Shown piece by piece: positions 17,721 to 57,865 of a stretch of 64,000 nucleotides of DNA. The translations under genes and the position numbers were made by a program. The stretch is taken from the NCBI GenBank assembly GCA_002633005.1, contig NMRA01000730.1, positions 1 through 64,000 of the forward strand, given 5' to 3'. The notes below the pieces were generated by a model. The model had not been told where the DNA came from, made no database searches, and worked only from the letters and a program-made list of their open reading frames with translations. The DNA is from Phoronis australis (Eukaryota > Animalia > Phoronida). Each line of letters starts with the position of its first letter. Positions within the stretch are counted from its first letter, which is position 1.

Positions 17721-20700
17721 CTAGATTGGAAGAAATAAAGCAATATTACATCAAATTGAAGTAACTCAGAGGTCAGCGATTGGCTTAAATCACAATGCAA
17801 GCCACAGACCTACATTTAACTTACAATTACCAACAAAAAGACACCTCAGTACCCAACAACTAATTATGACACGTGGATATGCTGCCTCGTTCGATTTTCG
17901 GCGATGTACGCATAATGTCAACTTTCACTTTGAATATTTAAGCGGTTATTAACCTGCCTTCCATCCCAATGAATTTTTTTTTTATTTTGACCACTATAGC
18001 TTAAAATGGCTTTAGTATATTCTTTTGAGTCAAAATAGATGTGAATTCCTAGCTTGAAAAGAATTAGTAGTCTTTTATTGTTTAATATTAGGCTCTAAAC
18101 TTTGACTTGTGTCGGCGTAGTGTCATTTTTATTCGCCGAACATGATTTTGAATAATTATAACGAACTGACACTTCTCATCTGAGAAAGGAACACGATCAG
18201 ACCAGGGGAGCGTTACTGAACACAGGGGAGCTATCTATAGCTATGATTGGTCAAAATCGATAGTTAGTTTTTTTACGGAGACGGGTTTACAGCAGTTAAA
18301 ATGCTACCGCCCACTGACAGTGACTGGGTTATTTTTGAATTTTATAACTCAGCAGGCACCGATGTAGAGTGAAGTGAAAGAGCCATTGTTTTCAATAGGC
18401 CCATTCTGAGTTGGACTCTTCTCTTTCTCGGAGGTTTAACTGAAAAATGTACTACATGACTGACCGGCTACTTTTCAAGATGTCAGACAGTCCTGAGTTG
18501 ATCAAAATCGCAAGAACAGAACAATGCATATTCAGCACTGATATCTGTCATTTTTGCCAATTTCGTGGCATCAGCATTGCAACTCAATATACAGTGCTGC
18601 ACGCTTGCCTCCATTACAATTGCTTAGTAATTAGAATGAAGGAGTTAGTGACTGGTAGCACGTGAAGAAGCGAGACAAGTGCTTGACATGTGTGTTGCAT
18701 TATGGGAATGAGAGAGGTGCTGTTTTGTTTCAGGACAATCCTATTAGGGCCAACAATGATATTGATCAGGCAATATAGAAATGGAGACAATAGTCAAAGG
18801 GAAAAATAAATCACACAATTACATGTATTAACTCAGAGCGAGTGTCTGTCAAGCTATCCTGCGGAAAATGCGGTCGTGTTTTGATCAATGGTTGGGTGGA
18901 CTGCTACCGATTTTCTCTATACTGTCCTAAAGTTATACGCCCTAGTTAATCATTATCATCACACAAGTGCCTTTTTATCGTGTTTTGTGGAAACAATTAC
19001 ATGACAGTAGATTTGGATTTAATTACAACAATAAAAACATTTTCTTTGACCTCACTAATCTACTTTTCAGTGGTGTTACTTAAAATGAAATCCACGTCAC
19101 ACTAGAGTGACTGCCCATGTGTTTTTGACGTGTAAATCTATCTAATCAAAACCTTGAACGAGCATTTGTACTCTGATTGCACCCCATGCCATTTATAATG
19201 TACAGCAACTGAGCATTACCAATAATTATCATTGATTACTTGTCGTAATCAATGACTCGGTGAAATGATTTGAGGTTCACCACAAAAAAATTACACCACA
19301 GGTACAGAAGTGAATTAAGCCAACTAATCGGCAATGTTGAATCAGTGGTGGTTTTACCTCTACGGTCTCTGGTAATAACAATACTCTTAGTTTTTTAATA
19401 CTTTCTCTTCATGAAACTTTAATTGTGTAAACGCGTCCGGCGCGAGCACAAAAATGTTGTGGACGTAAACACGTGCACACGTGTTTTTATGGCTATGGTG
19501 ACTTAGATCTTTTTGTTTCCGAACATTACAGTTTGACTCCAATGTCAAATGTCAGGGATATGTACTTTGAGAAAAATGTGTCGACCAATTTCCGCTTGGT
19601 TCCAAAACAGATACAATGTTACAAAATTACACTCAATATCTTTAAATTTTGACACCGATCGAGTTTTGTATTATTATTTTAAAGTTCTCCTATTCCACGT
19701 TTTACGTGTTCACGTTTTACAAACATCGTCATCAACGTTCTAACACAGTTAAATTGTTTTTAGAAAAGTAGCCTCTCTTTCGCTGGTACCCGGGGTAGAG
19801 TTAATAAGTTGCTGCCGCGGGTACAAGAGTACATCTCTCCAAAATCTGGCTATGACGTAACATCTGCTTCAATTCTGTGTTGGGAAATCGTCTACGTCAT
19901 TATGTTTTGTAGCACATCAGTATAATCTGTGTTCACTCATCATTTTATGAAAAGAACTTCCCATACCTCTCCTTGGAAGATCAACACAATACATGAGATA
20001 CGAATTAGAACAGCCATTTCAAAAGCTTTTAACAAAATTACATAGTGTAGAAAAAATATTCCAGCCTCGTTACTTATCTCCAATTCATGCCCGCCGCTTA
20101 TTTATTGAATGTTGAATACACTTGACAACTGGATAGGGAGAGATTTCATTTTGGTTTGGCTGAGAGAAAACCTAATTTGAAACCAAAACCGGTGCGTTTC
20201 AAAAATTATAGTTTTCGACATTTCACAGTGACATCCACAGTTAAAAGTGGTGCTCAAAAATAGATAATTATGCACCTTATTCACACAGCCGGAATTTTAG
20301 TAGTGAGCCTTTTTTTAGGTTTTAAAAACATTGCATTCTGCACTTAATGACAGCGCAAATCGTAATTTTTTCGCGTGCCTCGTAATATTTATGTCTCAAT
20401 TGCATGTTTTTTTAAACCTAAAAAGAGGCTCATTACTAAAATGGTGACTGCATGAATAAGGTGTATACACATAATATATCACGTAAAGATATAGGAATAA
20501 GAATAAAAGAAACAAAAATTACATTGCTGTTTAACCGACTTCTTACGTGAAAAAAACATAAAATGTGTTATTCTGTTAATCTTAGAACTTCCTTTCAAAA
20601 TTGTGAAATATAAATCTGAATTTACTACGTCACAACCTTTTTTCTCATTAACATTTGAGATGTTAACAGGAACTAAGGTTAAATCTTAGGATGTTCCCCA

Positions 20701-22909: not shown

Positions 22910-23969
22910 CAAGATTTCGGTGCATTTTTACCACCAAAGCCCAAGAAACTGGCGGCGATGCTTGGGTTCGGCGCTACTTCGGTGCTGTGTTTCCTGTGCC
23001 GATGACAGCCACAACTGAAGGCTCTGTATAAAATTGACGGGACCCCACCACGTAGTCATCGCATAGGGGCCTTCGTCAGTAGGCCTATCGACCGAAGAGT
23101 GTGTATAATGTAGGATCCCGGAGATACAAAAATGTGGCGATCGGAGGGAGGGGGGAGGCGTAGATTTAAAATTGTGGCGACCAGGAACTAATCAGTTATA
23201 GAGGGGCACAATTTTTACGAGCCACTTTTCAGTTACACTTGTGTGTATGGCCCTTGATGTTGTCCCGGGAACCGCCTCTGTAGGCCTTCCCATCACGGAC
23301 TTTCTCACTAGAGCCGGTTTAGTGGCAAAGTGTGTTCTCTTGCCAGGTATCGTCTCCAGTGGATATTTGGTACTCGTGTACTCAGTCGCGAACAGGCCGA
23401 TTCATCTTGCACTTAGGGTGTAACATGCAGTGGCGATAGCGAGCCGGTGAGAAAGTTTTGACCTGGCCCTCAAAGCTCACTGCAGGGAAGAGATCTCTAA
23501 TAAGAGAGGGGCGCCGCCAACTTGGGTTGGACCTTTTCTAACCGGCACTATCGGATGGAAGATGGTAAAACAAGTCATCAAAAGTGGGGATCGGTCGGCC
23601 AAACGGATTTTACCTTTTTTCCACTTGAGTGAGGAGCCCAGTTCATATACACCCTATCTTCCCAAGCCTAACAACTATGCCAGTTTTCACTAGACAATAC
23701 GCGAAACGACCTGTCCCAATTACGGTAATTCTTCATTTAATTTGCACAAAATAATCATTCCAATATTGTCATTTTCCCAATTCCAATTTCCAATTTTCTA
23801 AGGCTAAACTACCATGCTGCAAGCAATGGAAACTTAACCAAATGTTATTTTATCACATCCACACAGTGCAAACCAGGCTAATAATAGGCAAAATATTCTT
23901 AATCTTTATCTTGTGCAGTAATTTGACAAAATAGTATTTAACTTGCCGGCCATGTTATGTGCTAAACAG

Positions 23970-24119
23970 CCTCCCGTTCAGTAACGCTAGGACCTCGCTA
24001 AAAAGCAAAACTTCGTGAGATTATGTGCGATATGGCCGTGTAATTTAAATGAAAACACGTGACTTTGGCTAAATTTTAGCTAGATCCTAGCGTAGGTCCT
24101 AGCGTTACTGAACGCACGT
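23970..24119. mobile_element. MITE family B (PIF/Harbinger-like, CAG TSD)
   Basis: Inverted repeats CGTTCAGTAACGCTAGGACCT / AGGTCCTAGCGTTACTGAACG with CAG on both sides; a close copy is at 54931-55076 and a diverged inverted copy at ~39488-39605. Confidence 0.8.
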
Positions 24120-24311: not shown

Positions 24312-27300
24312 ATGACAAGCGTGGGCACTGAACACGAGAGAGACGACGAAAGCGACACCAGTGACAGCGACCAAATGGACAAAGAATTAATGGGAAATTT
24401 GCGTAGTCAGGACGATGTCTTGAAAACGACGGATTCAGGAGTCGGGGAGCAGCTTGTTATTGAACGAAACCAATCAGATGCTGAGTATTATGATGCATCT
24501 GACCGTCTCGAACATGAGTCCATGAATCATCTCCACGATGAAGAAGGTAGGGTCCATAACTGCAAATAAGCGTCGCACTTACGAATACCGTTCAAAACGT
24601 TCGGAGTTTTACCCGACCAAAAGCAAGAACTTTTTTAATGGTTCTTATTCATCAATAGTCCTTTTACGAGTTAATAACAATAACGCGAAATTCTGTGAGA
24701 CTCAACTGTGAAGTCACCGGAAGTAGGGCAAAAACTTGTCGTTTGGCCATTTGCCCCATACGTTAGTAGAGTGTATTCTGTTCAGTTTACTTCGAGTTTT
24801 TAATTTTTTAATGCGAAAAATGCCAAACAAGCATTGCTGTTTTGGGAAATGTAACTCAGATTCTCACTACAATACGTCCCATCTCGTTCTCTACTAGTTT
24901 CGTCCCCGGTATTTTAAACGGGCGGTAGGCGAAATCCGCACAGTGATTAAGAGTGTTCACCTCGTAAAAAATACATGAAACGTCCATAGACGCTTTGCTC
25001 AGAGTTTAAAATTGGGTTGCTTCATACAGTTGGCTACGCATTAATTACTTTAAACTTTGCATCAAGCAATTGTTCCACTATAGTACTACTTCATTAACAG
25101 GACAAGATGATAGTGCCCGGCGCTTTGGTGAACGCCAACTCGCCAAATGCGACTAAGCGAAAATCTCAAGTCCGTTGCCAAATTACGTGCAGTAGGCCTA
25201 CCTCTCCCATTTCTTTCGCAGCCAAACAATTCCGACTTTCTTCTGTTTACGTGATGTTGTAATTTGAGCCCCTGCTTGACATGTGCTGAATGGTCAGAGC
25301 GGCAAATGCACTGATTTCACGAAATAAACGGAACAATTGTGAACCAATTGATTCCAGCAAAAATATTATTAATTATTATTCAAACTTAGGAAGTCACCAC
25401 AGATTTTGAAGGGAATTTCGGGAGAATTATTTTCTGACTTTGCTACTCGCTGTGGAGACTTGGAATATTTCCACGGGTCGCCAAATACAATCTGAAGTCG
25501 CCAAATCGAGCACTGAGATATTTATCAGTGGCTTTATGTACGGAATCCATAGCATTTCCCTTCAAATTGTGAACTGCCGTGTACGTGCGTATTTAGACCC
25601 TTGCGCCTGTATGTGACGTTTCGTTGAAGCCAATATGTGAAACGCTGAAAACCAAAGAAAATTTTTTAAAGATGAATTATGACTTATTGACTAAAAAATG
25701 GCACACATTGATGTGTAATTCTAAAATGGACAATACACTCAGTAAGACATTTACATCAGCAGGGTGGGCATTCACGTGGGTTTATGGGAAATTCGTGATT
25801 AAAATATTCAAAATCATCTTATTTTGGAGAGAGGCCCGTAACATATATCTACGATTACAAATGTCATTAGGCTTCTCAAAGATTATATTGGGATGCCCGC
25901 ATCAGCGGAAAGTATAGTATAGAATTTTGAATATTGAAGGAATTTTTCCCCAGTAAAACATTTGTATTTTCTGGGCTAGACAAAAGTCGGGCGTCGCAAG
26001 CTCGTTTCCAGAGATAAAAAGGAGAGGAAGGATGGCATAAAATTGTTCATTAGTTATGACTGACTACAATCTGAGTTGTACAATAAAATGTAACGTGAAA
26101 TACCCTTGAGAAGGGGCTGCAGTGGGAAGGAAAAACGGAGAACTCGCACGTCTGTGTTGCAGGAATAAAGAAATAGCAGTGAAACGTGATAGTAAGACTA
26201 AAAGAGATCCCTAAGGTCACGTGACAATTATGGGCATGAGAGCCGTGAGCTGACCAAACTCTAAGCCCATGGACGATAAGTCAATCGGGAGGCTGGTAAC
26301 AATTATAATCCTGCACATAAAATCTAGGGACCAGGCCAGATGTTGAAAGGGGTATAATGTTGGTGTGTCCACATAAATATATTAAACGAGTAAAAGACTG
26401 CACTTGCTTGACTTCGAAGGTATGGCTGGTCAACCGCCTGAGACTTAATTCCGATTGGTTTACAAGTCGGAAGTCGTCATATAAAGCCAATCAGACGCTT
26501 TAATCGGTTGACCCGACACCTGACTAAGTCAATCAGGAGCAGCCACTGATGTTGAAATACAGCATACTAGAAATGATGTGTACATGAATACGTTTGGTAT
26601 TTATGTTTAGTAAACTGACAACGAACCGTGTTTCAGAGTCCTTCGAAATACGACACAGAACTCAAAGTGGTGAGCGCATAGTGTGGCGAGGTCAAGGTAA
26701 TTAACTGTAGGGGGGGGGGGNNAGGGGGGGATTTTTACTTGAAATCAAACTCACAATTATTTGTTGTTACATTTTCCGTTCCACTTTTGTGCGAGCGCAC
26801 GATAAGTGCGTGTCTCTGATCTTGTACTTGAGTATATTATGGTTTACGTGGATGACTGTCTAATCCTAGTTTGCACTTGATGACCTCAACGTTAAAGCCA
26901 TAAGCAGGGACCTGAACTCGAAATTTCGAATTTTTATTTAAAATTTCAATTTTGTAGTTAAGGTTGCAGCTTAAAGCTAGGGGTCAATAAATGCGAACTT
27001 GGACCAGGCCTACTAGATGCTCATCTCAGTGCGTAATCCTATTATATGCGAGCACTCAAAAATAAACACTTTTCCAAAGCAGAACTTAAAAGTTACCCGC
27101 TGGTTCGATTTTGAGTACAGAGATTAGAAACCAGGCCCTGGTGACGTATCTCTTAGATTTCTAGTTTGAGGTAACCTTGGGGTAACATGGAAAATAAATC
27201 TGAAACTAAAAGAGGCAATCCAGATCCTTTAAAGAATACTATTATTTGACGAAATGTAGTCTATATATATGTATATATGTATATGTATATATCAAAGTAA

Positions 27301-30300
27301 ATAAAACAATAATAATGGATCTGAAATTTTCAGATATAATAACATCCTTTGTCAACAGAAAAAGAAATAAAGTAAAATCAAACACCATATGACAAATGAT
27401 ATCTGCTGTTGCAATGAACATGATAAATTGTTGCGGAAAAAAGTAAAAGAAATCGTTTAAGAAGTCTTTGTGTTTAATCCAGTGGGTTCAAGTGTATTAA
27501 GCTTATTTATCCAAAACTGATTTCTTTTGAGTCTGTGAGGGGTACTGGGGTATTGGGGTTTTTCTATTATTTGAAAAGAAAGATCTTGTAGATTATGGAT
27601 TTTGGAATTGAAATGATTACCTATTGCACCAGAAATGTTTTTTAAATATTATGTTAAATCTATGATTGGGAAACCGAGTTTGTAGATTATGTTGAGTTTG
27701 TCCTACATATTGAATGGTACACTTACTACATGTTATTAGGAAAATGATATTGTTGGTGGTGCAGTCAGAATGATATTTCATTTCGAAGTGTAACTTTATC
27801 AACGACAATACTTTCTTCCAGTCTTCTCAAACCAATGAAAACTTCGAAATAAAATATTATTCTGACTGCACCACCACCAATATCATTTCCCTAATGATAT
27901 GTAGTAAGTGTTCCATTCAGTATGTAGGACAAAATCAACATAATCTACAAACTCGGTTTCGCAATCATAAATTTATCATAATACGTAAAATTATTTCTGA
28001 TACTATAGGAAATCATTTCATTTTCAAATAACATAATCTTGAAGATTTTTCTGTTCAAATAATCGAAAAAGTCCGATACCCTATTACCCCTCACAGACTC
28101 AAAAGAGAACAATTTTGGATGCATAAGCTTAAAACACTTGAACCCAATGGATTAAACATATAGAATTCTTAAATAATTTCCTTTACTTTTTCTGCAACAA
28201 TCTATCATGTTCATTTCGCCAAATATCAGTTGTCATTTGTCATATCGTGTTTGGTTTTACTTCATTTCTGTTTCTGTTGACAAAATGTTATTATATCCAA
28301 AAAATTTCAGTTGATCCATTATTGTTGTTTTATTTACCTATATATAGTTTGAGGTGAATTTCCAACAAAAGTTATGTTGAAAACGAGGAATAGATTAAAG
28401 TCGATCAATAAACAACTAACAACGAAACCCACTTTAGAAAGCAAAATTAAGAGATGTTTTGTGTTTTCTATCTTCAGATGACTGCGTGACTCCTTCAGAT
28501 TATTTTTTTCACGTTCGTGTTCCCGAAGTAGTAGTTTCCATATGTGATTTACGACACAAAGAACATGGAAGATTTGACTCAGGGGCAGTAGTGATACAAA
28601 TGTCAGAATTTGAAAATAGCTCAGATTTTCTAACCCTATTGAAAAAGTCGTCTAACATTCACTTCAATCCGCCACTGACCGACACCGATGACGTCACAGC
28701 ACACCAAATGTCAAGTCGCGTTCAATCTGGAAGCCTAAGGGAGGAGTTCAAGAAAGTACAGTTAAAAGAAATAGTCAGTAGTCGCGTCCTCCCTCAAATT
28801 CTGTTTGTTGTAAACAAAAAAGATGAAGTACACAAAAAGCTTTATTTTGTGTCAGACGACAGATTTTACAAGTGCTTGAAGTTGAAAGGAACCGACACCA
28901 TTAACGACCTTATCAATATCTTTACCGATGACAAAAGTCGGCCAGAGGATGACGGGACACTTTTCCAAAACAAGTCTTTGTTCGCGATGTTCTCTTCATG
29001 TGCTTTAGATCCAGAGAAAACAATTGAGGCGTGCCAATTCTCTGAATATTCGGTAATTCATTTATTGCCAAAAATATCGCTACAAGCGCGTGGAATAAGA
29101 GTTCGACAAAAACAGAAAATTTATCACATTGTACAGTGCACAAATGCCGATTCAGTTGCAAAATTAAAGGATAAATTTGTTAGAGAAATAAATAAAAGTG
29201 AAGGTAGTTTCTTGACCTGTGACCAAATTTGTTTGACATGCAAAACCAGGGATACCACGTGCGTTTTGAACAGCGATCAATCTGTAGCCTCAGCCTTGGG
29301 CACGATCGGTCGACTTGGATACACCATGAATTCTGCCACAGTGATATTGGAAAACCTGTGGATTCATGTTTTGCAACCAGACAGTTTTTCAGTCCGTGTT
29401 CGAGTCCAATGCAGGAACGATAGCTTAATCGGTAGATTTAGTGCCGCTGGTCTACTTTCGCCCTTTAACGATGCCATGCCAGATGTTGCACAAGTAATTT
29501 GTAACAAAGACACAACTATTAAACAAGTTAAGCTGGACATTTCTGCCCAAACTGAGAGAGACGAAGACTCTTTGCAAATATATTGCAATCAATCTGTTCT
29601 TCACGACGGGTTCTGTATGGGAGATCTTAGAACACCGCTGCCTACTTTGACCTGTGTCGAGCAAAAGCCAACTAGGGTTCAGGTTAACGTAACCTTTGAC
29701 AATTTTACAAACAAAATAGTCAAGGACGTTTTGGATGTCTATGATCACTCCACATGCCAAAGAATGCTTGAAATTCTTGTTTTGAGGTTAAATATGCAGG
29801 ACGACATGAAATTGGACCTATTTCTTGATGGCACGGACACGCCCCTGGATAGAGAAAAATCGCTGAAAACATCAGGGGTATCTGAACATCCATTTGTAAA
29901 AGCAATCTATTATCCAAATCGCATTGCCGTTTTTTTAAAACTCAGGGAACACCCCTTGAGCAGACTAGTAATTGACCGTCCTACGGACTTCACTGTAGGT
30001 CAACTTAAAAGCTACGTTATGCAAAAGTACCCTGTTATTGCAAGTGCTGCTGTGAGCGTTGTCTGGAACGGCCAGTGTTTGATCGAAGGTCAGACCATTG
30101 ATAGTTGTGGCATTAAGCACGAAGACAAAATTTTCGTCACTTCCGGCTCAAAAAAGATTCCTCCTTCCCCGTTTCTGACTGTGTTTTGTGCCCATTACAA
30201 TGACGACTCTGTGGATGTTGAAGAGTGGCTCGCCCTACCACCCAAAGCAGGGGAGACTGCGCGGCCATTCACATGGATTGCAAAACGTGAGTACCTTCAT

Positions 30301-33300
30301 ATCTTGTGCCCGGCTCACCTCTCAGAGACTGGCACTTTGAGAGCCAGATATTGTGGGATGCAGATAAGCGCTGAGAAAGTTTGTTCTGCACCATTCCTTT
30401 CGCAGACTGATCTTGTGTAGTGAAGACTAACAAAATAGACATTCATCTAATGCAACAAAACTAGGATTATTGTATTTTATCCCGTTCCAAAGTTTCCGTC
30501 ATCTTGAAGGAGCTTCTAACCATCTCTCCCAACAAATCGACCGGAGTCTGCGGTATTAGCGGACGACTGGTAAGAGCTGTCGAGTTTGTCACCCTGGATC
30601 CACATCTTTGACTTATCCTTGAAAATAACATATTGGGTCTTTGGACTTGAAGCAGGTCAATTTTAAGGAGGGTAGTAAACCCTTTTGTACCAATTACAGC
30701 TCGATATCCGTTCTTTCTGTCTTCATAAAAAAGTTCAATAGGTCTGTTTGTAACCAGGTTTATTAGTATTTACAAACCTACAAATTGTTGACGCCATAAC
30801 AGCCGAGTTTCAAAACAACTTATTCTTCTGCCACTGTTCCAGTTGATTTTTGTTATCGTTTTCTTCCTGGTTTGGATAGCGGAGGGGTATCTGGAGCCGT
30901 GTTCCTGGACCTGAGGAAGGCCTTCGATACCGTGCACCTCCCCTAGCTCTTTTCCAAACTGGAGACCACGGACATCACTGTAAATGTGTAGGCTGGGTTT
31001 AGTGTGCCCACGTGAACCAAGTGTTATCTGATATTTACCCCTTATTCTTGGTGCCCCACAAGGGCCCATTTTGAAGTCACTAAAACATGAACGGTCTAAT
31101 AAATTTACTCCAATCTAAGATAGCAGTATACGCTGTTTTCTGTGGTTTTAAGAAAATCGATGAGGTCGAGTGTACCCCAAACGAATACAGGGTACATGCG
31201 TTGTATAGCAATTTGTGTACTTCTATAACCAAACCTGTTTCTGTACCAGCTGAAGCCGCGCAAATAGCATAATACTCAATCACATTTGAATAGAAAGGTC
31301 GTCAGTAGAATGTGTAAAATAGGTTATTATTTAGGTGTTATTCTTAATATATATTTGACTTTTGATAAGCATTTGTCAAGCATATCGTCCAAAGTGAAGA
31401 GCAGAACCGTTCTTTTAATAGTAACCAATTAAACATTTTGTACAAATCTTCTGTCTTTCCAATCATTGCATACTATAATGTTGTAATGTTCATCATACAG
31501 TATATGTTTTTGTTTCATCTTTTCAATGTTATCATTTCTGCTGAATTGCCTTTACTTTATTTCTAATTTTAGAATTATCTATTTTTGATTTAGTGTGCAC
31601 TGTCTTTTCGTGTCTTTTGTTTGTTGTCCAGTGTTTATTTTACATTGTTTTATGTGAACCCTTGGGTGAGCAATTAATTTTAATTAAAGGTACAACAACC
31701 GAAAAGACAGTTTTCAAATATGAATAATTAAGGTCGTCATAAACTTAAAGTGTTTCCTTGCAGAATATGTGGGTTGGTTCCCTTCGTGTTACAAAGGTAT
31801 CTGAAAAAACCCAAGCTGATCTAGATAACGAGGTTGCCTCCGTAATCTTGAAGCAACCGGAAATAACACCAAAACAAGTTCACTTCTACGTAAGAACTAA
31901 CTGACAAAATGTCAGCATGTACATGTATAACTTGTGATTACTTTCATACTTCTCAGTGGAAAAGGATAACGAGGATGAAATAATGAACGCATTTGCCTCG
32001 ATCACGGAAAGTAATGTTCCACGCAGCCAATCACGTGACGGGATGGAACAGACGCACCAAAAGAGCTCACCGGCTTTAAGGCGTACGTATTGGCTTAATT
32101 ACGAAGAATGCTGTCTTGCAAACCGCATGCGAACTACATATTATAATCATCCCTTATCAATAGTAAAACTATCAGATATCTGTCTCTGGTAAGGACGCTG
32201 TCATTACTTTTGCGTTCATTAAGTCCTTGGGAGTTGTATTATCAAAAACGTATAAGCAACCGTAAGGTAAGCTCGAAATTTTCAATTAAATTGACTCATG
32301 TGTGGCGCACATTCTAGCGTATGAATAATGAATTCACCGCAACCAAGGCGTATGCAATGCGCGACACTGTTTTTCGTTTTTGCGTATGGTGGAGTGTCCA
32401 GTGCGCAAGCCAAGAGCATTCCGAACGCAAACAGCGTGTAAACCGCATGCCTGATGCTTTTCCGACAAATGTTAAGCACATTCCGTGCAGCATGACCTCG
32501 TCGCACGTCTGTGCTCGTGCCCCAATTCCTTTTAAGTTACGCAATGACATTTCCACAATCGTACGCGCAATGTGCACTTTACGTGTTTCTCAACAGTTTT
32601 TGCTGTACGTACACAGGTATGCGCACTGAATACCCAGTGACGCCTGACAGTTTAGGGCATGCTCAGACGCATGCTGCGTGTGCTATTTTTCGCAAATTGT
32701 ACGCCACAAATACGCAGCGCATCAACGCTCAACTCATGAAACTTAATTGTTACATGCAGAAGCACGAAGACCCTCAAACCACAAAGTTTGATTACGGTTA
32801 TAACAATGACGAACGACGAAGGTGACTGCAAACACATTGAAATAAAAAGTAATTCTTTGATCTTGCAGAAGAAGTTGTCAGACCTACAATTTTAACTGTG
32901 GATAGTCCACACAGAAAATCATCATTTGAGGACGAACCTGTTCATTCAAATGACGACAAAGCGAACGATAAGAGAAATGAGATGAAGAACCAGTCATTAC
33001 GTCAAAAAACGATTGAAAAACCTGACCAATGCGTAGGATTGAACGTCACTGGCCATATGTCTGAAAGTTCAGAAGCAGGTCAACACGTGATCAGACCCAC
33101 GTCTCTTCCCGCGGTAGTTGCCAGCCAAAAGCACAACGTAGCGACAGACGTGCTCAGTGAAACGACCCAGATCGTAGCAACATCTACAACAACAGTATCA
33201 GGTACTCTCGCGGCAGCCAGGTGTTCGCCGCTGACCAGCATCGGTAGAGCGTCGCCAGTCGAAAATGACACCTCGTGGTGCAAAACGGAAGTAACTAAAA

Positions 33301-39170: not shown

Positions 39171-42100
39171 TTACGTGCCACTCTGTTCGCTTTCTATCAT
39201 GAACTGTTCGAAAGCTTCAGCAATTTCATCTTCATCAGCGTCCTCGTATACATCTAACGATCTGCAAATCAAAGAAGATGTCGGGTACAGATCGAGGTGA
39301 GCAGCCTTCTCCACTCGCAGACAAAAGTGCAGACTACATGTGGCATTCAAGGTGAAAACAAACATTAATTAATTGGTATTACCTTTAAATGTCTAGGACC
39401 TTATTAACTACGCATGCAGTCAATAGTCAAGTTACGTGAACGTTACAGTGAAAGGTTACGTTATTGGAGGCAGTGTTGTGTATTTGAGCTCAGCAATGCT
39501 AGGACCTCGCTAAAATCTAGCCAAAATCACGTGTTCTCATTTCAATATCACGCGTAATTTTTGCAAAGACTTGCTTTTTAATGAGGTCCTAGCAGTGCTG
39601 TACTCTGTCCAGGCCTCAAGAGGGATTCAAACCCATGACATCAAGGAGGGTGCAGCGTGACGCTTTCCAAGTAGAGCTAAAAGCTAACGCAGCAAGTAGC
39701 CGAGTATTTTAAAGACTATGTAGGACTAAAAAACTGTCCAACACCATATCTCAGAAATGGCTGACTGTATTCATATGAATCTGTCAGATATCATGCGTTA
39801 TACACTGTTCTCTAAAACACTGTTAGCGATTGCTTCAAAAATGTTCCACTTTTGCATGATGGGCTACCAAAAAGGGACTTTCATGGTTCTCATAAAAAAA
39901 TGAAAAAAGATAATTTAGAAAACAGTAAATTTTTTTGAGATTTCATCCTGAACATCTATATCAAACAAAGTCATGTGCTATGTTGCCACGGATGTACATT
40001 TCCTTTTTGATAAATTTCATAAAAAGAACATGGTCACCAAACCCAGTTAGTACCATATTGGTGTGAAGTCAAACATCAAACTCTACAGCTTTTCTACTTT
40101 CACATACTTTTTCAAAATTAAAATCTGTCGTTTTGTAAAAGCTTGGCTTAATACACAGACTAGGCGATGAAGTCCAACACAATCATGACTCGTTCATTGC
40201 CAAGTTTTAGAACTGCATTTCTCAGTGTCGTATTGATGTTGAGGTTATGTATAACATAGCTTTCAAACAAAAACAAGAGCAACGCGGAGCGTTGAAATGC
40301 GCCCACAATTGCACCGCATACGGTATCCTTCTAGGGTTGTTTATTGGTACCATAAAGTGGCCAGTAGAGGGCATACTTTGCAAAATGGAAAGGCATGGTC
40401 ATTGTCTCCTCAATAGGCTAGGGGCAAAATGTGAGTAATCTTCATAATACAAGCACATCCTATACACCAGTTGCTTAAAGCACCACAGAAACATANNNNN
40501 NNNNNNNNNNNNNNNNNNNNNNNNNNNNNNNNNNNNNNNNNNNNNNNNNNNNNNNNNNNNNNNNNNNNNNNNNNNNNNNNNNNNNNNNNNNNNNNNNNNN
40601 NNNNNNNNNNNNNNNNNNNNNNNNNNNNNNNNNNNNNNNNNNNNNNNNNNNNNNNNNNNNNNNNNNNNNNNNNNNNNNNNNNNNNNNNNNNNNNNNNNNN
40701 NNNNNNNNNNNNNNNNNNNNNNNNNNNNNNNNNNNNNNNNNNNNNNNNNNNNNNNNNNNNNNNNNNNNNNNNNNNNNNNNNNNNNNNNNNNNNNNNNNNN
40801 NNNNNNNNNNNNNNNNNNNNNNNNNNNNNNNNNNNNNNNNNNNNNNNNNNNNNNNNNNNNNNNNNNNNNNNNNNNNNNNNNNNNNNNNNNNNNNNNNNNN
40901 NNNNNNNNNNNNNNNNNNNNNNNNNNNNNNNNNNNNNNNNNNNNNNNNNNNNNNNNNNNNNNNNNNNNNNNNNNNNNNNNNNNNNNNNNNNNNNNNNNNN
41001 NNNNNNNNNNNNNNNNNNNNNNNNNNNNNNNNNNNNNNNNNNNNNNNNNNNNNNNNNNNNNNNNNNNNNNNNNNNNNNNNNNNNNNNNNNNNNNNNNNNN
41101 NNNNNNNNNNNNNNNNNNNNNNNNNNNNNNNNNNNNNNNNNNNNNNNNNNNNNNNNNNNNNNNNNNNNNNNNNNNNNNNNNNNNNNNNNNNNNNNNNNNN
41201 NNNNNNNNNNNNNNNNNNNNNNNCCTCTACATAGTAAGCACATACATGCCAATTTTCACAATCATCCTTTGAGCGGTTTGGTTGATAGAGGGGTGGAAGC
41301 ACAAAAACAGACTCGAAAACAGTAAAAATGGCCACTAGGTGGCGCAAACTATGTCGAATCCATCCGAAAACGGCAGGATAGCGTCATCTCACTACTAGGT
41401 GCCTACATACCAAATTTCATGAAAATCCGTTCAGGACTTTTGAAGATACAAAGGTAAGCGTAAAAAACTAAAATTGCCACTAGGGGGCACACCGGTAGTC
41501 GGATCCATCCGAAAGTTCGCACATGCCGTCCCATTCATGAATGGAACATATGTGCCAAATTTCATGAATGTATGTCAAAGGGTTTTGGAGATAGAGCAGC
41601 GGACGCCGGACGCCGGACGGACGCCGCCCGGACGGACGGACGGACGGACGGACGGCCGGCCGGACGGACGGACGGCCGGACGGACGGACAGAGATGACGG
41701 CATAATGCGTCCACATATAAATATGTGGGCGCATAAAAATGCTAGAAAATCATTATTTATTGGCGGGTTGTTATGAACTTTCAGGGCAAGATGCACACAC
41801 ATCATTTAATGATACGTGTATACTAAGGTAGAGTATTCAAGATGTTCGGTGGAAAAACACTATCAATGGTCAATGAAGGGATTTGGTTCAAAGTCATACC
41901 CTGACGGTCCCAGTTCATATATCGTCTCTGATCCTGTATCGGAAAATTTCAAATGTATAGATAGGCATATCATTGAGTGCAAGTAAGAATTTGATGCCTA
42001 TCACAATAAAAGTACGCCACTGGCGCAAAAACACATTCTACTTTGATTTGTGACGATGTTGACTGAAAGTGTAATCACAAGGTATGTTAAAGTCTACCCC

Positions 42101-51100: not shown

Positions 51101-54100
51101 GACCTATCCAGTGACAGATTGGTATTATAAAATCAAAACTAAAACTCTCCAGAAATTCTGCTTTCAGAAAATATATAGTTTTGGAGAGTTCGTTTTGTAG
51201 ATATTTAGCTTTAAGTGTACAGACAGGTCCCACAAACCTAATGCTATGGTAATAGAATGAATTATTAAGATCACTGAATATCTAACACACTATATTCTGC
51301 ACGTCATAATTTGGATATAAAAACCACGCGACACAGAAAATCCTGAACGAAACAGGGAATTGTTCAAGGCAATGTCAGATTCTCGTTTCATGAACTGCGC
51401 AGTAATTAAGGCGTTACCATTCCATGAGTTGCTCACTCACCTGCTGTACAATTAAATCTATCACAGACAACAGCACGCTGTCATTGGTTTGATAAGCAGC
51501 TAGCGTCTCCCTTAGCGACGACGCGAGATAGTCGAGAGAGCTGGGACTGGATGACAGCTGGCTCAGAGTGTACTGAACTTGTTCCACAATGAACACGCAG
51601 TCTTCTTCGAATCCCTGAAATTGTACCGCCCACAATTATCAGATCGATTACTGCCACCAAACTGGTCTCATCTCGCACCACATGTTCGGATCTTTTTTGA
51701 AAAACGATGCGAGGGGCAGTATTTTTCGTAGCTCAATTTTTCAAAAAATAAGATCAACCTGAGACAAGGAAAAATTATGCAGGTTTCTTTTACTCATCCC
51801 TTGACAACTCACATTTCAAACCTTTCTTACTCTTTCCTTCATGCCTATGTACAATTTTGAAAAAACACAAGAGTCTGCATTAAACAGATGTGAGTGGACA
51901 GACTGGATCAAAGGTCTTAAAGATGAGTTAGGCACATATCTGAGCCAACTATGGTTTGTTTTGGCATTAGCCACATCAGAAGGGATTTCGGGGGTTATGA
52001 CGAATTGACAGCTCCCTGTTACGCAACAAGAAGTTGAAAAAAGACACAACAATCAGGACGTACATACTAAAAAATAGGTAAGTTTAAATTCTGGCAGGTC
52101 AAGTTCATTCTTAATTAATCGTATTACTACAATATACGCACACTTAAATTCGAAGTGTCGCTGGCTTCCCCATCTCCTGCGGCTATGTTTTTACGTGGAA
52201 CAAATTCTTGAGCATCTGCTGACAGTGGTTTAGGGATAAATTCAGGAGCATCTGCAGACAGAGATGTATTTTGTTTTGTGTTTTGTGGGACAAAGACATC
52301 AGCGTTTATGTTTAGAGAACTCGTCACAGATTTTGACGATTCTTGTGTTGGATCTGAGTTTTCGGTACCACATGGTGAATCATCGTAATCTCGGTGAGTT
52401 AGCTGTCTACTGGGACTGTCTGCTGGTGAGCTGTGACTGGACTGTTCAGCGTCTGAAAGCAAACACAAAGTACACATCAGAAAGACATGAATATTAATTA
52501 AGGATATCAGTAATCTCAATAATAAGTGGATTTAGTCAAATATTTACAAAACCATTGATGGAAATTAAATCCAAAAATATAGAATTTTGAACATAATACC
52601 AATTGAAACTGCCCATTTTTACCTCAAATCTAGCCTTTACAAAACAGAAAAACAAAAAATAAATATAAAAATAACATGTTTATTGATAAAATGTCATTTG
52701 ACGAGGATAAGAGGAAGGACTTTTGCACACCTTTCAGACACAAGCTCACCCTGTGTTATATATGGTGAAAGAGTTTAAGAGTTAAACGGCTCATAAACAA
52801 TGAAAATGTGGCTATAGATGAATACACAAACATATATAAAACAAACCAGTATGGGAATTCTTATCTAATACATAACATAGTGCAATAACACTATCAAAAA
52901 ATATCTAAACTGACAATGTAACAAAAAATAAAAATTCAAATGACAGTCGAGTTCTGTTTATCTCTAGGATAATACCTCTAAGGACATTCATACATACCAC
53001 TCCATTTATCCGCATTTGTGTCTGAAGTATCTGTTAGAATTGTGCGAATATGAGGTTTTGAGTATAAAATAGTTAAAAATAGGAGGATTTTGTGTCACTA
53101 CTTTGTTGTGTGATAAATGAGCAAAAGTGTGAGTGTATTAATGGTTGCAAATTAATTTGCGATTAAACTTGGGTTTTTAAAAAAATCTATAATTCTCAAA
53201 ATTGCATGCACTGAGCTTTGATGGATTTACTCAAAAGTGCTTACACTGGTTCCCAGAAAGCTCTATCACAGGTGCATTAGTAGAACACACGGGTAAAGTC
53301 TGCATCTCCTCAACTCAATAAGGACAGCGAAAAGTTTGGAAGGGTGAAAGGTGTATAATAAATTTCTTTTATTAGTTTTTCATTGTAACAATTACTTAAG
53401 GGCCCAAACTTAGCATGTGTTAGTGCAAAAGTTTGCATAATAGAGTTTTTAACCTAAGCCTTATTATAAGTGTCATAATTAATTACAAGAAAGTCGTTAC
53501 TGCCCATGGTAAGGGGACCACATTATTTCATATACGTGAAATTCATTAAAGCGCAAAAACCTCCTACCCAGGTGCAAACACAAAGTTAAGAACAGTTGAA
53601 ACAATATTCTAGACCAAACCATGGGGGTAAAATTAACATATAAGCAGCATATCTGTTTACTAGTAGGTCAGTGACTTTGTCCAGTTCAGGCACTTTCCAA
53701 ACCAGTATCTTTTAATATTAGTTTAAATTGGCAACCTCAGATCTTAGTCAGGTAGTCAAAGGTGACTTTGACGATGACTATATGTGTATTGTCAATGCCA
53801 TTGACATAATTGTCCAAATCTCATGTTAAAAATGTGAAACAGCGCTCATGGGATGTTTGACATAACAGTTGGCTGCAAACAGTAATTTTATAGATATCAG
53901 GTCCTCAGTAGCTCAGTCGCCAATGGTAAGAGCACTAGACTCGCAACCTGTGGTTCGATTCCCAATTGGGGTTCGCGATTTTTAATGCTTATTTGATATA
54001 TTTCACTATTGCCAAGCTCAGCATCTATGTATTCATTGGTATATCAGTATAAGAATACTGTATTTTTGGAATCAACATATGGGTAGGATTAGGAAAATAT

Positions 54101-55233
54101 TAATATCAAGTGGCTATACTTTTGGAACCAAGTTGTACACAATAACCTAGATTTGTTCAAAGAGCAGTAATTGCCGAGATCACCCAACCCAGGGACCAAC
54201 CTCAGTCACTGAGTCAGTGAACCCGATACAGTTACGAGACCTGAGTACAACCAGCAAGACTGCTAACTGTAGTAAGAGCCAAGATTACCCGACCCGGGAA
54301 TCGAACCAGCGACCCCCATAAAACCGGCAAGTGTGCTAACCATTCAGCTAATAGGCAATTGCCCGTTAGCGAGTGGCTAACAGAGGCTCATATATGATTC
54401 ACCAGAAGCACGTCTACAACATTCCCCCCTTTCCTACGGAACGGGCACGCCACCAGGAAGGTGAACACCAGGATGTCTCCCATACGTAGGTCATCAATGT
54501 CTCTTGGTACTTTTACCAACACAACACACAGGTGAACACAACGTAGTCTCTCATACACAGGTCCTCGACTCCTGCAACCTTCCATGCGCACTGTCCGCGG
54601 GTACTAGTTGGCAGTACTTCATCCGTTTGCCGACTACGCCACTTGTAGTAATAGCCGAGATTACCCAACCCGGGGATCGAACGAGGGACCCCCATAAAAC
54701 CAGCAAGCGTTCTAACCATTCAGCTAATAGGCAATTGCCCGTTAGCGAGTGGCTAACACAGGCTCATATATATGATTCAGCGGAAGCTCGTCTACAACAT
54801 AACCATTCGGCAAATAGGCAATTGCTCATTGGAGAGTGGCTGATAGAAGCTAGTATGATTTACCACAGTCACGTCTACAACAACAGTTTGCTTACACTAA
54901 CCAGGCAGTAATGAGATGAATACAAACCCGCCTCCCGTTCAGTAACGCTAGGACCTCGCTAAAAAGCAAGACTTCGCGAGATTATGTGAGATACTGCATT
55001 TTAAATGAGAGCACGTGACTTTGACTAGGTTTTAGCTAGGTCCTAGCGTAGGTCCTATCGTCTACTGAACGCACGCCTGAACTTCGACTCAACACAGATT
55101 CATAGGAAAGAGACGAACCTAACTTGGCGACAGTTTCAGGATGAGGTGGTCTAGGTTTCATCATTCCTCGCCCTCGGCCTCTACCACGACCAGCGCTAGG
55201 CGTGGTATCGCCAGGAGAATCTGTGCTTGACAT
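39171..55233 (-). CDS. PAIP1: Polyadenylate-binding protein-interacting protein 1, 10 coding exons, 472 aa
   Basis: Exons 55233-55119, 52452-52142, 51614-51441, 49132-49014, 46815-46707, 45626-45498, 43745-43639, 43038-42912, 42342-42206 and 39261-39171 splice in frame (1419 nt, all GT-AG). Contains PAM2 motifs, MIF4G segments (YSAARLCSHL, FTQFIGEIYLSL, LVDLRSNNWGR), TEPVFY and an acidic C-terminus DEDEIAEAFEQFMIESE. Confidence 0.95.
39620..40250. repeat. SINE-like head (- strand) followed by an interspersed repeat shared with ~49560-49900
   Basis: GGGATTCAAACC...TAGAGCTA are tRNA-like boxes on the minus strand. TATCTCAGAAATGGC...GTTCCACTT(T/A)TGCATGA recurs at ~49630-49745. Confidence 0.5.
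40272..41739 (+). mobile_element. Non-autonomous Helentron-type (HINE/Pearl-like) element spanning the assembly gap
   Basis: AACAAGAGC...GCGCCCACA 5' end; internal ~140-bp diverged repeats (GCCACTAGG...CCAAATTTCATGAA); (GGAC)n microsatellite at 41600-41690; terminal hairpin ATGCGTCCACATAT-AA-ATATGTGGGCGCAT. The hairpin recurs inverted at ~57129-57165. Continuity across the gap is assumed. Confidence 0.65.
40496..41223. other. Assembly gap (N run)
   Basis: Run of N. Confidence 1.
44663..45062. mobile_element. MITE family A full copy (PIF/Harbinger-like, CTG TSD) inserted into a tRNA-SINE head
   Basis: TIRs GGCCTGGTCTCCAATCTTTTACTCGAAA / TTTGAGTACAAAGATTAGAGACCGGGCC with CTG duplicated. The flanks rejoin on the minus strand to GTGGCTCAGTGGTAAGAGCTCAGGACTAGC. 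Confidence 0.85.
45940..46382. repeat. ~42-bp minisatellite, ~10 diverged copies, in a PAIP1 intron
   Basis: Unit ACATCTTGATATTATCATCAAGTCTGGTATCACATCTTTCTG. Confidence 0.95.
47175..47348. repeat. Exact 87-bp tandem duplication
   Basis: GTTCACCATTCATTCTCGG...GTCTGAATAC occurs twice, identically. Confidence 0.9.
47698..48264. repeat. ~283-bp tandem duplication across a single N, likely an unmerged haplotype overlap
   Basis: 47698-47979 and 47981-48264 are near-identical and separated by N at 47980. Confidence 0.85.
50485..50960. mobile_element. Diverged Helentron-type element remnant with three ~140-160-bp internal repeats
   Basis: Recurrent ATGAAATT...CCAGTCGA(A/T)TTT...GCACCCC(C)TGTT units following a GTCAGTCCGTCTGT microsatellite remnant. 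Confidence 0.5.
52142..52452 (-). CDS. PAIP1: PAIP1 exon 2 with three PAM2 motifs
   Basis: SSLNINADVFVP, TSLSADAPEFIP and KPLSADAQEFVP. Confidence 0.92.
53901..53985 (+). mobile_element. tRNA-derived SINE head or tRNA pseudogene
   Basis: TAGCTCAGT...TGGTAAGAGCAC...GGTTCGATTCCC; the D and anticodon arms are disrupted. Confidence 0.55.
54163..54882 (-). mobile_element. Older diverged LTR of the TRIM family, split (54163-54267 and 54800-54882) by the younger TRIM
   Basis: The left half AGCAGTAATTGCCGAGATCACCCAACCC...CCAGCAAGACTGCTAAC and the right half TAACCATTCGGCAAATAGGCAATTG...GTCTACAACA align to successive parts of the TRIM LTR. Confidence 0.75.
54268..54799 (-). mobile_element. Complete non-autonomous miniature LTR retrotransposon (TRIM) with tRNA-like LTRs
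   Basis: LTRs 54799-54644 and 54421-54268 (TGTTGTAG...ACTACA); PBS TGGCGTAGTCGGCA (54641-54628); PPT AGGAAAGGGGGGAA (54435-54422); 4-bp TSD TAAC; A box TAGCTGAATGG and B box (G/C)GTTCGAT(T/C)CC in each LTR. Confidence 0.9.
54931..55076. mobile_element. MITE family B copy in PAIP1 intron 1
   Basis: Close copy of 23970-24119; flanks CCG/CTG. Confidence 0.8.
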
Positions 55234-56550: not shown

Positions 56551-57865
56551 TACGTCTGTTGGTTGGGGATGATTACTCAGATTATTATCCAGTTTACAGG
56601 ATGAATTATTACGACAGTAGTCGCATGAACTTTTAGTTCAGTTCACTGGTGGGATATAGTGTCTCCTGAACTAGAGAACAAGTTTCACCCATTGAATAAT
56701 TGGCCTGTTATTCTGTGATTGGCTGACTCTCTTAGCTAGATGCCACTGTATCCATCCAGTGCCATAGTGTATAAAAATTCGCATACTGACATCAAGTATT
56801 GAGCTTCTGCCACCGGTGGGAGAGTCAAGTGTCCATACTGTTTGACCATGAGGCAATGGCCTATAGACAAGTGATTTGTAGAGGCTTTATTCAACTGTGC
56901 ATCAAAACCTGGAAGTCTCATGTTACAACAGCAGTCATAGACAGGTTGCCCGTCTTTGCTGCCGCCTCGTGACTTGGCTTACAGGCAGGTGACCTCTCCA
57001 TAACCTTCTGTACAATTTCATTTGATCTTGAGCACATGAAGTTTAGTTTAGCCAGAGTTAAGTGTAATTTGCTGAAAATCAGGCTTTCGGACTTTATTAG
57101 GATATGCATCATACAGCTGTCACTAGTTATGCGCCTACATATTTATATGTGGACGCATTATGCCATCATTTTGAGAATCTGGCACTCACGGAATAACTCC
57201 CGATTTACACTGGATGACACTGCTTGACATTCCTGGACCTGTAGTACACAACAAAGCCATTTAAAATAAATAAGGGCAAATAATGATAGAAACTCTTCAT
57301 TTTCGTGAGTTCAGCTCACGCGCTTGATTGTACCGGGTTGGCTACTTTTTAATGGGAGAAATAGCTTGTGGAAAACTGGAAAACTTGTAAAATGAAAACC
57401 CTTGGAGTGGATGGAATTTGCATCAAGTAAAACTTGGAGGTAATTGCTGTTTTCATGCGGGTGGTGTACAGTAGAGCTTATTGTTATTTGCATTGCTGTT
57501 ATCTCTGTCCGGGTGTCCACATCTGATGAAGGTTTTATCTTTTTAACAGCTAGCAGGGCCTAATAAATTAGTCAGATGTACTTCTATTAAATTGGTAACA
57601 GATGGCTATGATTTCCAGCTTGATCAGACTACCGCTGTGCCCTCAAGTGGATAATTTATTTTTTTCAGTTGCCTTTGTATTCGCAGTTCTTTTGTCTGGA
57701 CAAATAGGTTTCTGCTAGTGAGTACTAAATTCATACCCAGACATGAATTAAAACTACGTATTTAGTGTTCTACTCGAACTTTGTTGCGATCTCAGTGTTT
57801 TCATGGCATTCTGCGCTGAAGTATGTGCACTTTTCTTTGAATAAATACGTTAAATATTTTCAGAA

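What the first reader, a model, noticed from the sequence alone, without database searches (positions are those of the whole stretch)
54163..54882. The TRIM inserted at the A-box of an older LTR of its own family (self-targeting)
Seen: the flanks are the two halves of a more diverged copy of the same LTR. They are split at GCTAAC|CATTC, the 3' edge of the tRNA A-box/D-arm, with TAAC duplicated. Another tRNA-like head lies ~200 bp away (53901). Established: Cassandra elements are known to nest in their own LTRs, and Ty3 targets Pol III promoters via TFIIIB/C. Inference: integration is guided by the Pol III promoter or a specific sequence, so each insertion creates new target sites. One event cannot prove a preference.
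Basis: partly seen in the sequence, partly recalled or inferred. Interest (0 to 1): 0.75.

Follow-up and report, generated by a model that had tools for sequence, protein, structure and literature searches.

The report
Mini-retrotransposon nested in older family copy
A 532-base non-coding retrotransposon with tRNA-like promoter boxes sits inside a decayed older end-repeat of its own family, but other copies have mixed neighbouring DNA, so this is likely a one-off nested insertion rather than an element that aims at its own promoter.

Summary
The structure is real. A 532-bp TRIM on the minus strand (54268-54799) has TG..CA LTRs, a tRNA-Ser-type PBS, a PPT and tRNA-like A/B boxes in each LTR. 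It is flanked by an exact 4-bp TAAC duplication and splits an older solo LTR of the same family (54163-54882) in register, at the 3' edge of its A-box. It fits the Helenus group (PMC10886601) and looks like an unlisted family.

Self-targeting is not supported. In contigs of the same organism the family has hundreds to thousands of copies. Flanks at the LTR ends are heterogeneous (43 and 19 contigs, agreement 0.41 and 0.39). None of the joints shown (15 of 27; 15 of 97) repeats this junction. The site lies inside the tRNA-like unit, not upstream where Ty3 and Tj1 insert. The host LTR was already diverged (K2P 0.31 against 0.09) and its boxes are now degenerate.

A weak bias remains open: individual flanks were not visible, rare junctions can drop out of contigs, and no assembly was available. 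Verdict: ordinary nested insertion, new member of a known kind.

The parts
54268..54799 (-). Complete TRIM (Helenus-type), 532 bp
   Evidence: Two TG..CA LTRs, PBS, PPT, 4-bp TSD
54644..54799 (-). 5' LTR, 156 bp; A-box 54716-54726, B-box 54673-54683 with one core change
   Evidence: box positions by offset from the 3' LTR
54628..54641 (-). Primer-binding site, 14 nt, 2 nt after the 5' LTR; complementary to the 3' end of tRNA-Ser
   Evidence: same letters begin the human tRNA-Ser template oligo in PMC3299991
54422..54435 (-). Polypurine tract abutting the 3' LTR
54268..54421 (-). 3' LTR, 154 bp; A-box 54340-54350, B-box 54297-54307, 32 nt apart
54264..54267 (+). Target-site duplication TAAC, left copy
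54800..54803 (+). Target-site duplication TAAC, right copy; overlaps the last base of the host A-box
54163..54267 (-). Host solo LTR, B-box/U5 half; degenerate B-box at 54192-54201; copy-specific extra segment of ~32 bp at about 54203-54234
   Evidence: alignment; single-copy depth 44.8 over 54208-54251
54800..54882 (-). Host solo LTR, U3/A-box half; degenerate A-box 54803-54813
   Evidence: 80% over 85 nt to the young LTR
54159..54162 (+). Host LTR's own TSD, left copy AAAG (right copy ACAG at 54883-54886; 3 of 4 match)
53824..54020 (+). Separate repeat with a tRNA-like head (A-box ~53909, B-box 53952); ends approximate; solo LTR of a second Helenus-like family or a SINE
   Evidence: summed depth ~10,000 against ~42 single copy over 53844-53965

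Best explanation
A complete Helenus-type TRIM lies inside a decayed solo LTR of its own family with a 4-bp duplication, and it likely got there by ordinary integrase-mediated insertion without aiming at the A-box. Shown: precise TG..CA ends, PBS, PPT, 4-bp TSD, in-register split of the host, host much more diverged than the inner LTR pair, heterogeneous flanks at other copies. Inferred: the RNA would be made from the tRNA-like boxes by Pol III, primed by tRNA-Ser, and reverse-transcribed and integrated in trans by a Gypsy-type helper, as proposed for animal Helenus. It landed in a repeat-dense patch (four repeat elements within 1.3 kb) where insertions are tolerated or regionally favoured.
For: Anatomy. 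Flanks in DNA run X1 (table 7): 43 contigs end at the 54268 terminus with loose-letter agreement 0.41, and 19 at the 54421 terminus with 0.39. Their majority letters show the PBS side or mixed sequence, not the A-box context. An unrelated dispersed repeat next door gives 0.34-0.45. Joints: 15 of 27 shown and 15 of 97, each a single contig per run, none joining an LTR end to the A-box site, while PBS-to-LTR joints were detected (table 5c). No LTR-end joint into the neighbouring tRNA-like repeat was among the 15 of 97. K2P is 0.09 between the inner LTRs and 0.31 to the host, so about 0.22 predates the insertion; host A- and B-boxes are degenerate and 65 nt apart instead of 32. Same-family nesting is reported for Ty3/gypsy in plants and attributed to shared niches (PMC6911290 passages). 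TRIMs are described as insertion hotspots (PMC6934838 passages).
Against: Under uniform insertion the chance per copy of hitting a family LTR is only about 4e-5 to 2e-3, and 0.01-3.7 such nests are expected per genome for assumed, unmeasured genome sizes and copy numbers. So the event is not trivially expected. The flank test saw only majority letters, and 12 and 82 joints were hidden. The window's own right junction was not among the listed joints, so sensitivity to single-copy nests is unproven. In RNA run X5, 22 reads (18 starts, depth 325) carry a 4-bp duplication within 1 nt of the same LTR site (table 4).
Confidence: 0.72

Rival explanations
1. Weak bias: the helper integrase prefers the neighbourhood of Pol III-type boxes or family LTRs (chromatin niche or loose tethering), so a small minority of copies nest in LTRs or near tRNA-like repeats, at no fixed base.
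For: Low uniform expectation; a second tRNA-like repeat ~300 bp from the insertion point; same-family nesting known for Ty3/gypsy; Pol III-gene targeting evolved in gypsy-type Ty3 and Tj1.
Against: Host boxes are degenerate today (timing of the decay unknown). No recurrent joint to LTR or neighbour repeat among those shown. PMC6911290 reports that LTRs are not commonly targeted.
Confidence: 0.18
2. Site-specific self-targeting at the A-box edge: sequence or TFIIIC guides insertion to this base, so each new LTR is a new target.
For: One clean event at the A-box edge in the same orientation. A 4-bp duplication within 1 nt of the site in RNA run X5. A-box targeting exists in Dada DNA transposons.
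Against: A dominant site would set the majority letters of the loose ends or give multi-contig joints; neither is seen. The position does not match Ty3/Tj1 or Dada nt 8-13. Contigs matching the old LTR start rejoin the LTR's other half with no LTR end listed between, as expected of uninterrupted copies (joints 54190 to 54361 and 54193 to 54370; letters between not given). The X5 duplication is AACC, not TAAC, has 0 contigs in X1, and fits slippage in one transcribed copy.
Confidence: 0.06
3. Not an integration but a recombination product (LTR circle or ectopic exchange) or an assembly artefact.
For: No listed contig spans the right junction; depth over 54820-54880 is low (24 in X1, 0 in X4).
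Against: Both inner ends are precise and the host is split in register with a 4-bp duplication, the family's TSD length. Homologous recombination with a 1- or 2-LTR circle would leave complete chimeric LTRs and no TSD (inference). The left junction is spanned in 3 of 4 runs of one sample.
Confidence: 0.04

Closest known systems
Helenus (TRIMp3), Kojima 2024, PMC10886601
   Same: Under 1 kb, non-coding, two LTRs with tRNA-like A and B boxes, tRNA 3'-end PBS, PPT, 4-bp TSD as in animal families, solo LTRs, hundreds to thousands of copies. By eye, a short hairpin before the A-box as in listed bivalve and nemertean LTRs.
   Different: Of 10 short motifs searched in its supplement, 8 were absent, including both PBS motifs; the 2 hits are unrelated families. 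Its PBS type is not in Fig. S2. The paper does not mention nesting ('nested' 0).
Cassandra TRIMs (plants)
   Same: Pol III-type promoter in the LTR of a TRIM.
   Different: 5S-derived and 5-bp TSD. Pear copies are distributed nearly at random with a weak base preference. Self-nesting was not found in the papers searched.
Ty3 and Tj1 (gypsy-type, tRNA-gene targeted)
   Same: Gypsy-type integration in relation to a Pol III unit.
   Different: They insert upstream, within a few bp of the start site (Tj1 5-11 bp before the mature 5' end), sparing the boxes. This insertion is 18-21 nt inside the unit and separates the host's A-box from its B-box.
Dada DNA transposons
   Same: Some families insert in the tRNA A-box.
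   Different: Transposase-based, TSD at tRNA nt 8-13, recurrent at one site; here an LTR element at nt ~19-21, seen once.

Membership tests
Helenus (TRIMp3) | Under 1 kb (up to ~1.3 kb), non-coding, two LTRs | tested here: met
   532 bp, LTRs 154/156 bp, internal 222 bp; no ORF of 90 aa or more within the element's sense strand
Helenus (TRIMp3) | tRNA-like sequence in LTR with TRGCY..YGG A-box and GGTTC B-box | tested here: met
   TAGCT..TGG and GGTTC in the 3' LTR, 32 nt apart; B-box of the 5' LTR has one change. ARAGORN and Rfam call no tRNA, consistent with a non-functional tRNA-like unit.
Helenus (TRIMp3) | PBS complementary to a tRNA 3' end, and PPT | tested here: met
   14-nt match to tRNA-Ser 3' end; purine tract at 54422-54435
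Helenus (TRIMp3) | 4-bp TSD (animal families) | tested here: met
   TAAC/TAAC; host AAAG/ACAG
Helenus (TRIMp3) | Transcription by Pol III from the LTR boxes | not testable with these tools
   RNA run X5 shows no pile of read starts and both orientations; untested in the paper too
Helenus (TRIMp3) | Mobilised by a Gypsy-type helper | not tested
   No assembly; inferred from PMC10886601
Ty3/Tj1-type Pol III-targeted elements | Insertion just upstream of the Pol III start | tested here: not met
   TSD at nt 18-21 inside the tRNA-like unit
Site-specific (self-targeting) element | Most copies share one target site | tested here: not met
   Agreement 0.41 (43 contigs) and 0.39 (19 contigs) at the termini; no multi-contig A-box joint in 15 of 27 and 15 of 97 joints shown
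Site-specific (self-targeting) element | A minority of copies enriched at LTRs or tRNA-like sequence | tested here: inconclusive
   Individual flanks not visible; contigs drop rare junctions

The most novel reading that the evidence does not exclude
The helper integrase of this Helenus family has a minor preferred site at the A-box/D-loop edge of tRNA-like units, including its own LTRs. The nested copy here and the 4-bp duplication within 1 nt of the same site in another individual's RNA would be two hits on that site.
Probability: 0.07. Interest if true: 0.65.

Novelty: new member of a known kind. Interest (0 to 1): 0.2.

Why it matters
As it stands it adds one Helenus family with a PBS type not listed before and one clean example of same-family nesting, which is minor. 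If a preference for Pol III boxes in its own LTRs were shown, it would be a self-seeding safe-harbour strategy and a targeting mode unlike Ty3 (upstream) or Dada (DNA transposon). Target choice of Helenus is not treated in the defining paper.

Tried and rejected
No whole genome is held, so flanks could not be extracted one by one. Exact-motif scans found no copies in metagenome contigs, viral contigs or prokaryote genomes. ARAGORN found 0 tRNAs and Rfam only an unrelated weak miRNA match at 20269. No other copy of the LTR lies in the window. Host taxon was not determined: two protein searches gave no hit, and the Atlas and Pfam attempts returned nothing usable. Earlier-findings look-ups were empty. 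Expression: no RNA holder was listed for the stretch. In X5, 562 reads of 12.75 million were laid, 1 at 99% or more alike, none on 54010-54251, 83% running on into other sequence. This says nothing about this copy and is not used as evidence. Binomial upper bounds on the targeted fraction are not used, because individual flanks were not visible. Summed depths give 557-6652 times single copy along the LTR and are only an order of magnitude. Several 'goes back' joints (54353 to 54294, 54388 to 54318, 54391-54393 to 54277-54287) have unknown letters between and cannot be read as nests or as diverged whole elements. Kalendar 2008 and Maiwald 2021 were not held and may bear on Cassandra self-nesting.

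Full report
Observation. The window shows a 532-bp element on the minus strand at 54268-54799. Its LTRs are 156 and 154 bp, begin TG and end CA, and differ by 13 substitutions and one 2-bp indel (K2P 0.09). Two bases after the 5' LTR is a 14-nt PBS identical to the start of an antisense oligo for the human tRNA-Ser 3' end (PMC3299991, one passage). A purine tract abuts the 3' LTR. Each LTR holds an A-box and a B-box 32 nt apart; ARAGORN and Rfam call no tRNA. TAAC flanks both ends and does not extend to 5 bp.

The flanks. Both sides align to the LTR better than all of 2000 shuffles (scores 45 and 78 against maxima 25 and 28) and continue each other in register across one TAAC. The host is a solo LTR at 54163-54882 with its own 3-of-4 TSD. 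It is 75% identical to the young LTRs over 152 columns (K2P 0.31), has degenerate boxes now 65 nt apart, and carries a ~32-bp segment at single-copy depth. About 0.22 of the divergence predates the insertion (inference from 0.31 minus 0.09), so the target was already old or of another subfamily; when its boxes decayed is unknown. The TSD overlaps the last base of the A-box, at nt 18-21 from the notional tRNA +1.

What it is. All tested features of animal Helenus are met (PMC10886601: text parts 1-4 of 6; supplement parts 1, 6, 7, 10, 11 of 11). Eight of ten short motifs from this region are absent from that supplement and the PBS type is not in its Fig. S2, so the family appears unlisted; the full consensus set was not aligned. 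Pol III transcription and Gypsy-type help are inferred from that paper. The host taxon was not determined.

Test of targeting. No assembly is held and collection scans were empty, so contigs of public runs of the same organism were used (four DNA runs, one sample). Summed depth shows a family of hundreds to thousands of LTRs. I laid X1 on a stretch with one LTR only. At the 54268 terminus 43 contigs have loose ends with agreement 0.41, the last majority letters being those of the PBS side. At the 54421 terminus 19 contigs have agreement 0.39. Neither shows the A-box context, and the values match an unrelated dispersed repeat (0.34-0.45). Two further groups (23 contigs before 54282, 45 behind 54393) show the LTR end followed by other letters. 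Of 27 joints 15 were shown, all single contigs, none from an LTR end to the A-box site; PBS-to-LTR joints were detected. In one search, 15 of 97 joints were shown, again none of that kind and none from an LTR end into the neighbouring tRNA-like repeat. A dominant self-target is therefore unlikely.

Limits and contrary results. Only majority letters were visible, many joints were hidden, and the window's own right junction was not listed, so single-copy nests may be missed. Uniform insertion gives only 0.01-3.7 expected nests per genome under assumed sizes and copy numbers, so some regional bias or the scan's selection among very many windows is needed. RNA run X5, another sample, has 22 reads (18 starts, depth 325) with a 4-bp duplication within 1 nt of the same LTR site, absent from X1. 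One slippage allele explains it most simply, and the neighbouring tRNA-like repeat also has a D-loop indel, but it is unresolved.

Comparison. Ty3 and Tj1 insert just upstream of the Pol III start and spare the boxes (PMC4600332, passages). Dada targets tRNA nt 8-13 but is a DNA transposon (PMC8869645, passages). Same-family nesting occurs in some plant Ty3/gypsy families, with LTRs not commonly hit (PMC6911290, passages). Pear Cassandra copies are nearly random with a weak base preference (PMC4079214, passages). 'Nested' does not occur in PMC7215508, PMC4079214, PMC10853983, PMC6934838 or PMC10886601. Passages of PMC12859917, PMC13570524 and PMC10946416 add nothing on targeting. Ten searches listed no report of Helenus target preference; subscription papers are not covered.

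Verdict. A real nested insertion of an apparently unlisted Helenus family into an old solo LTR. Non-targeted nesting 0.72, weak bias 0.18, site-specific self-targeting 0.06, artefact 0.04. Interest 0.2.

Noticed in passing
window 54337-54341 (LTR coordinate), RNA run X5: 22 reads with 18 starts (depth 325) carry a 4-bp duplication within 1 nt of the nested TSD site; 0 contigs in DNA run X1. Probably one transcribed copy with D-loop slippage.
   Followed up: no
window ~53824-54020, + strand: The 'other tRNA-like head' belongs to a repeat whose multicopy depth starts ~75 bp upstream of the head, and the head's lead-in resembles oyster Helenus-3 LTRs by eye. It may be a solo LTR of a second Helenus-like family rather than a SINE; ends and TSD not fixed.
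   Followed up: partly
window ~54920-55080; also 23964-24118 and 39486-39605: Very high-copy MITE-like repeat with internal inverted repeats (summed depth up to 910,000 against ~42 single copy), 40 bp from the host LTR.
   Followed up: partly
window ~54203-54234: Copy-specific ~32-bp segment in the host LTR next to its broken B-box, containing a short inverted repeat; origin unknown.
   Followed up: partly
window 54318-54321 and 54696-54699 (approx.), - strand: A T4 run lies between the A- and B-boxes of both young LTRs; it could weaken Pol III read-through (recalled terminator rule).
   Followed up: no
window 54456-54566: Two ~37-nt imperfect direct repeats (78%) inside the TRIM's internal part.
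   Followed up: no
window 27288-28346: About 1-kb element with long inverted arms (83-91% complementary), foldback or MITE-like.
   Followed up: no
window 28438-30420, + strand: 660-codon stop-free frame with no relative found in one protein search; looks ubiquitin-like by eye only.
   Followed up: partly
window 41249-41736 and 57127-57169: Repeat with a GGAC microsatellite and sub-repeats, resembling Helitron-derived non-autonomous elements (label recalled).
   Followed up: no
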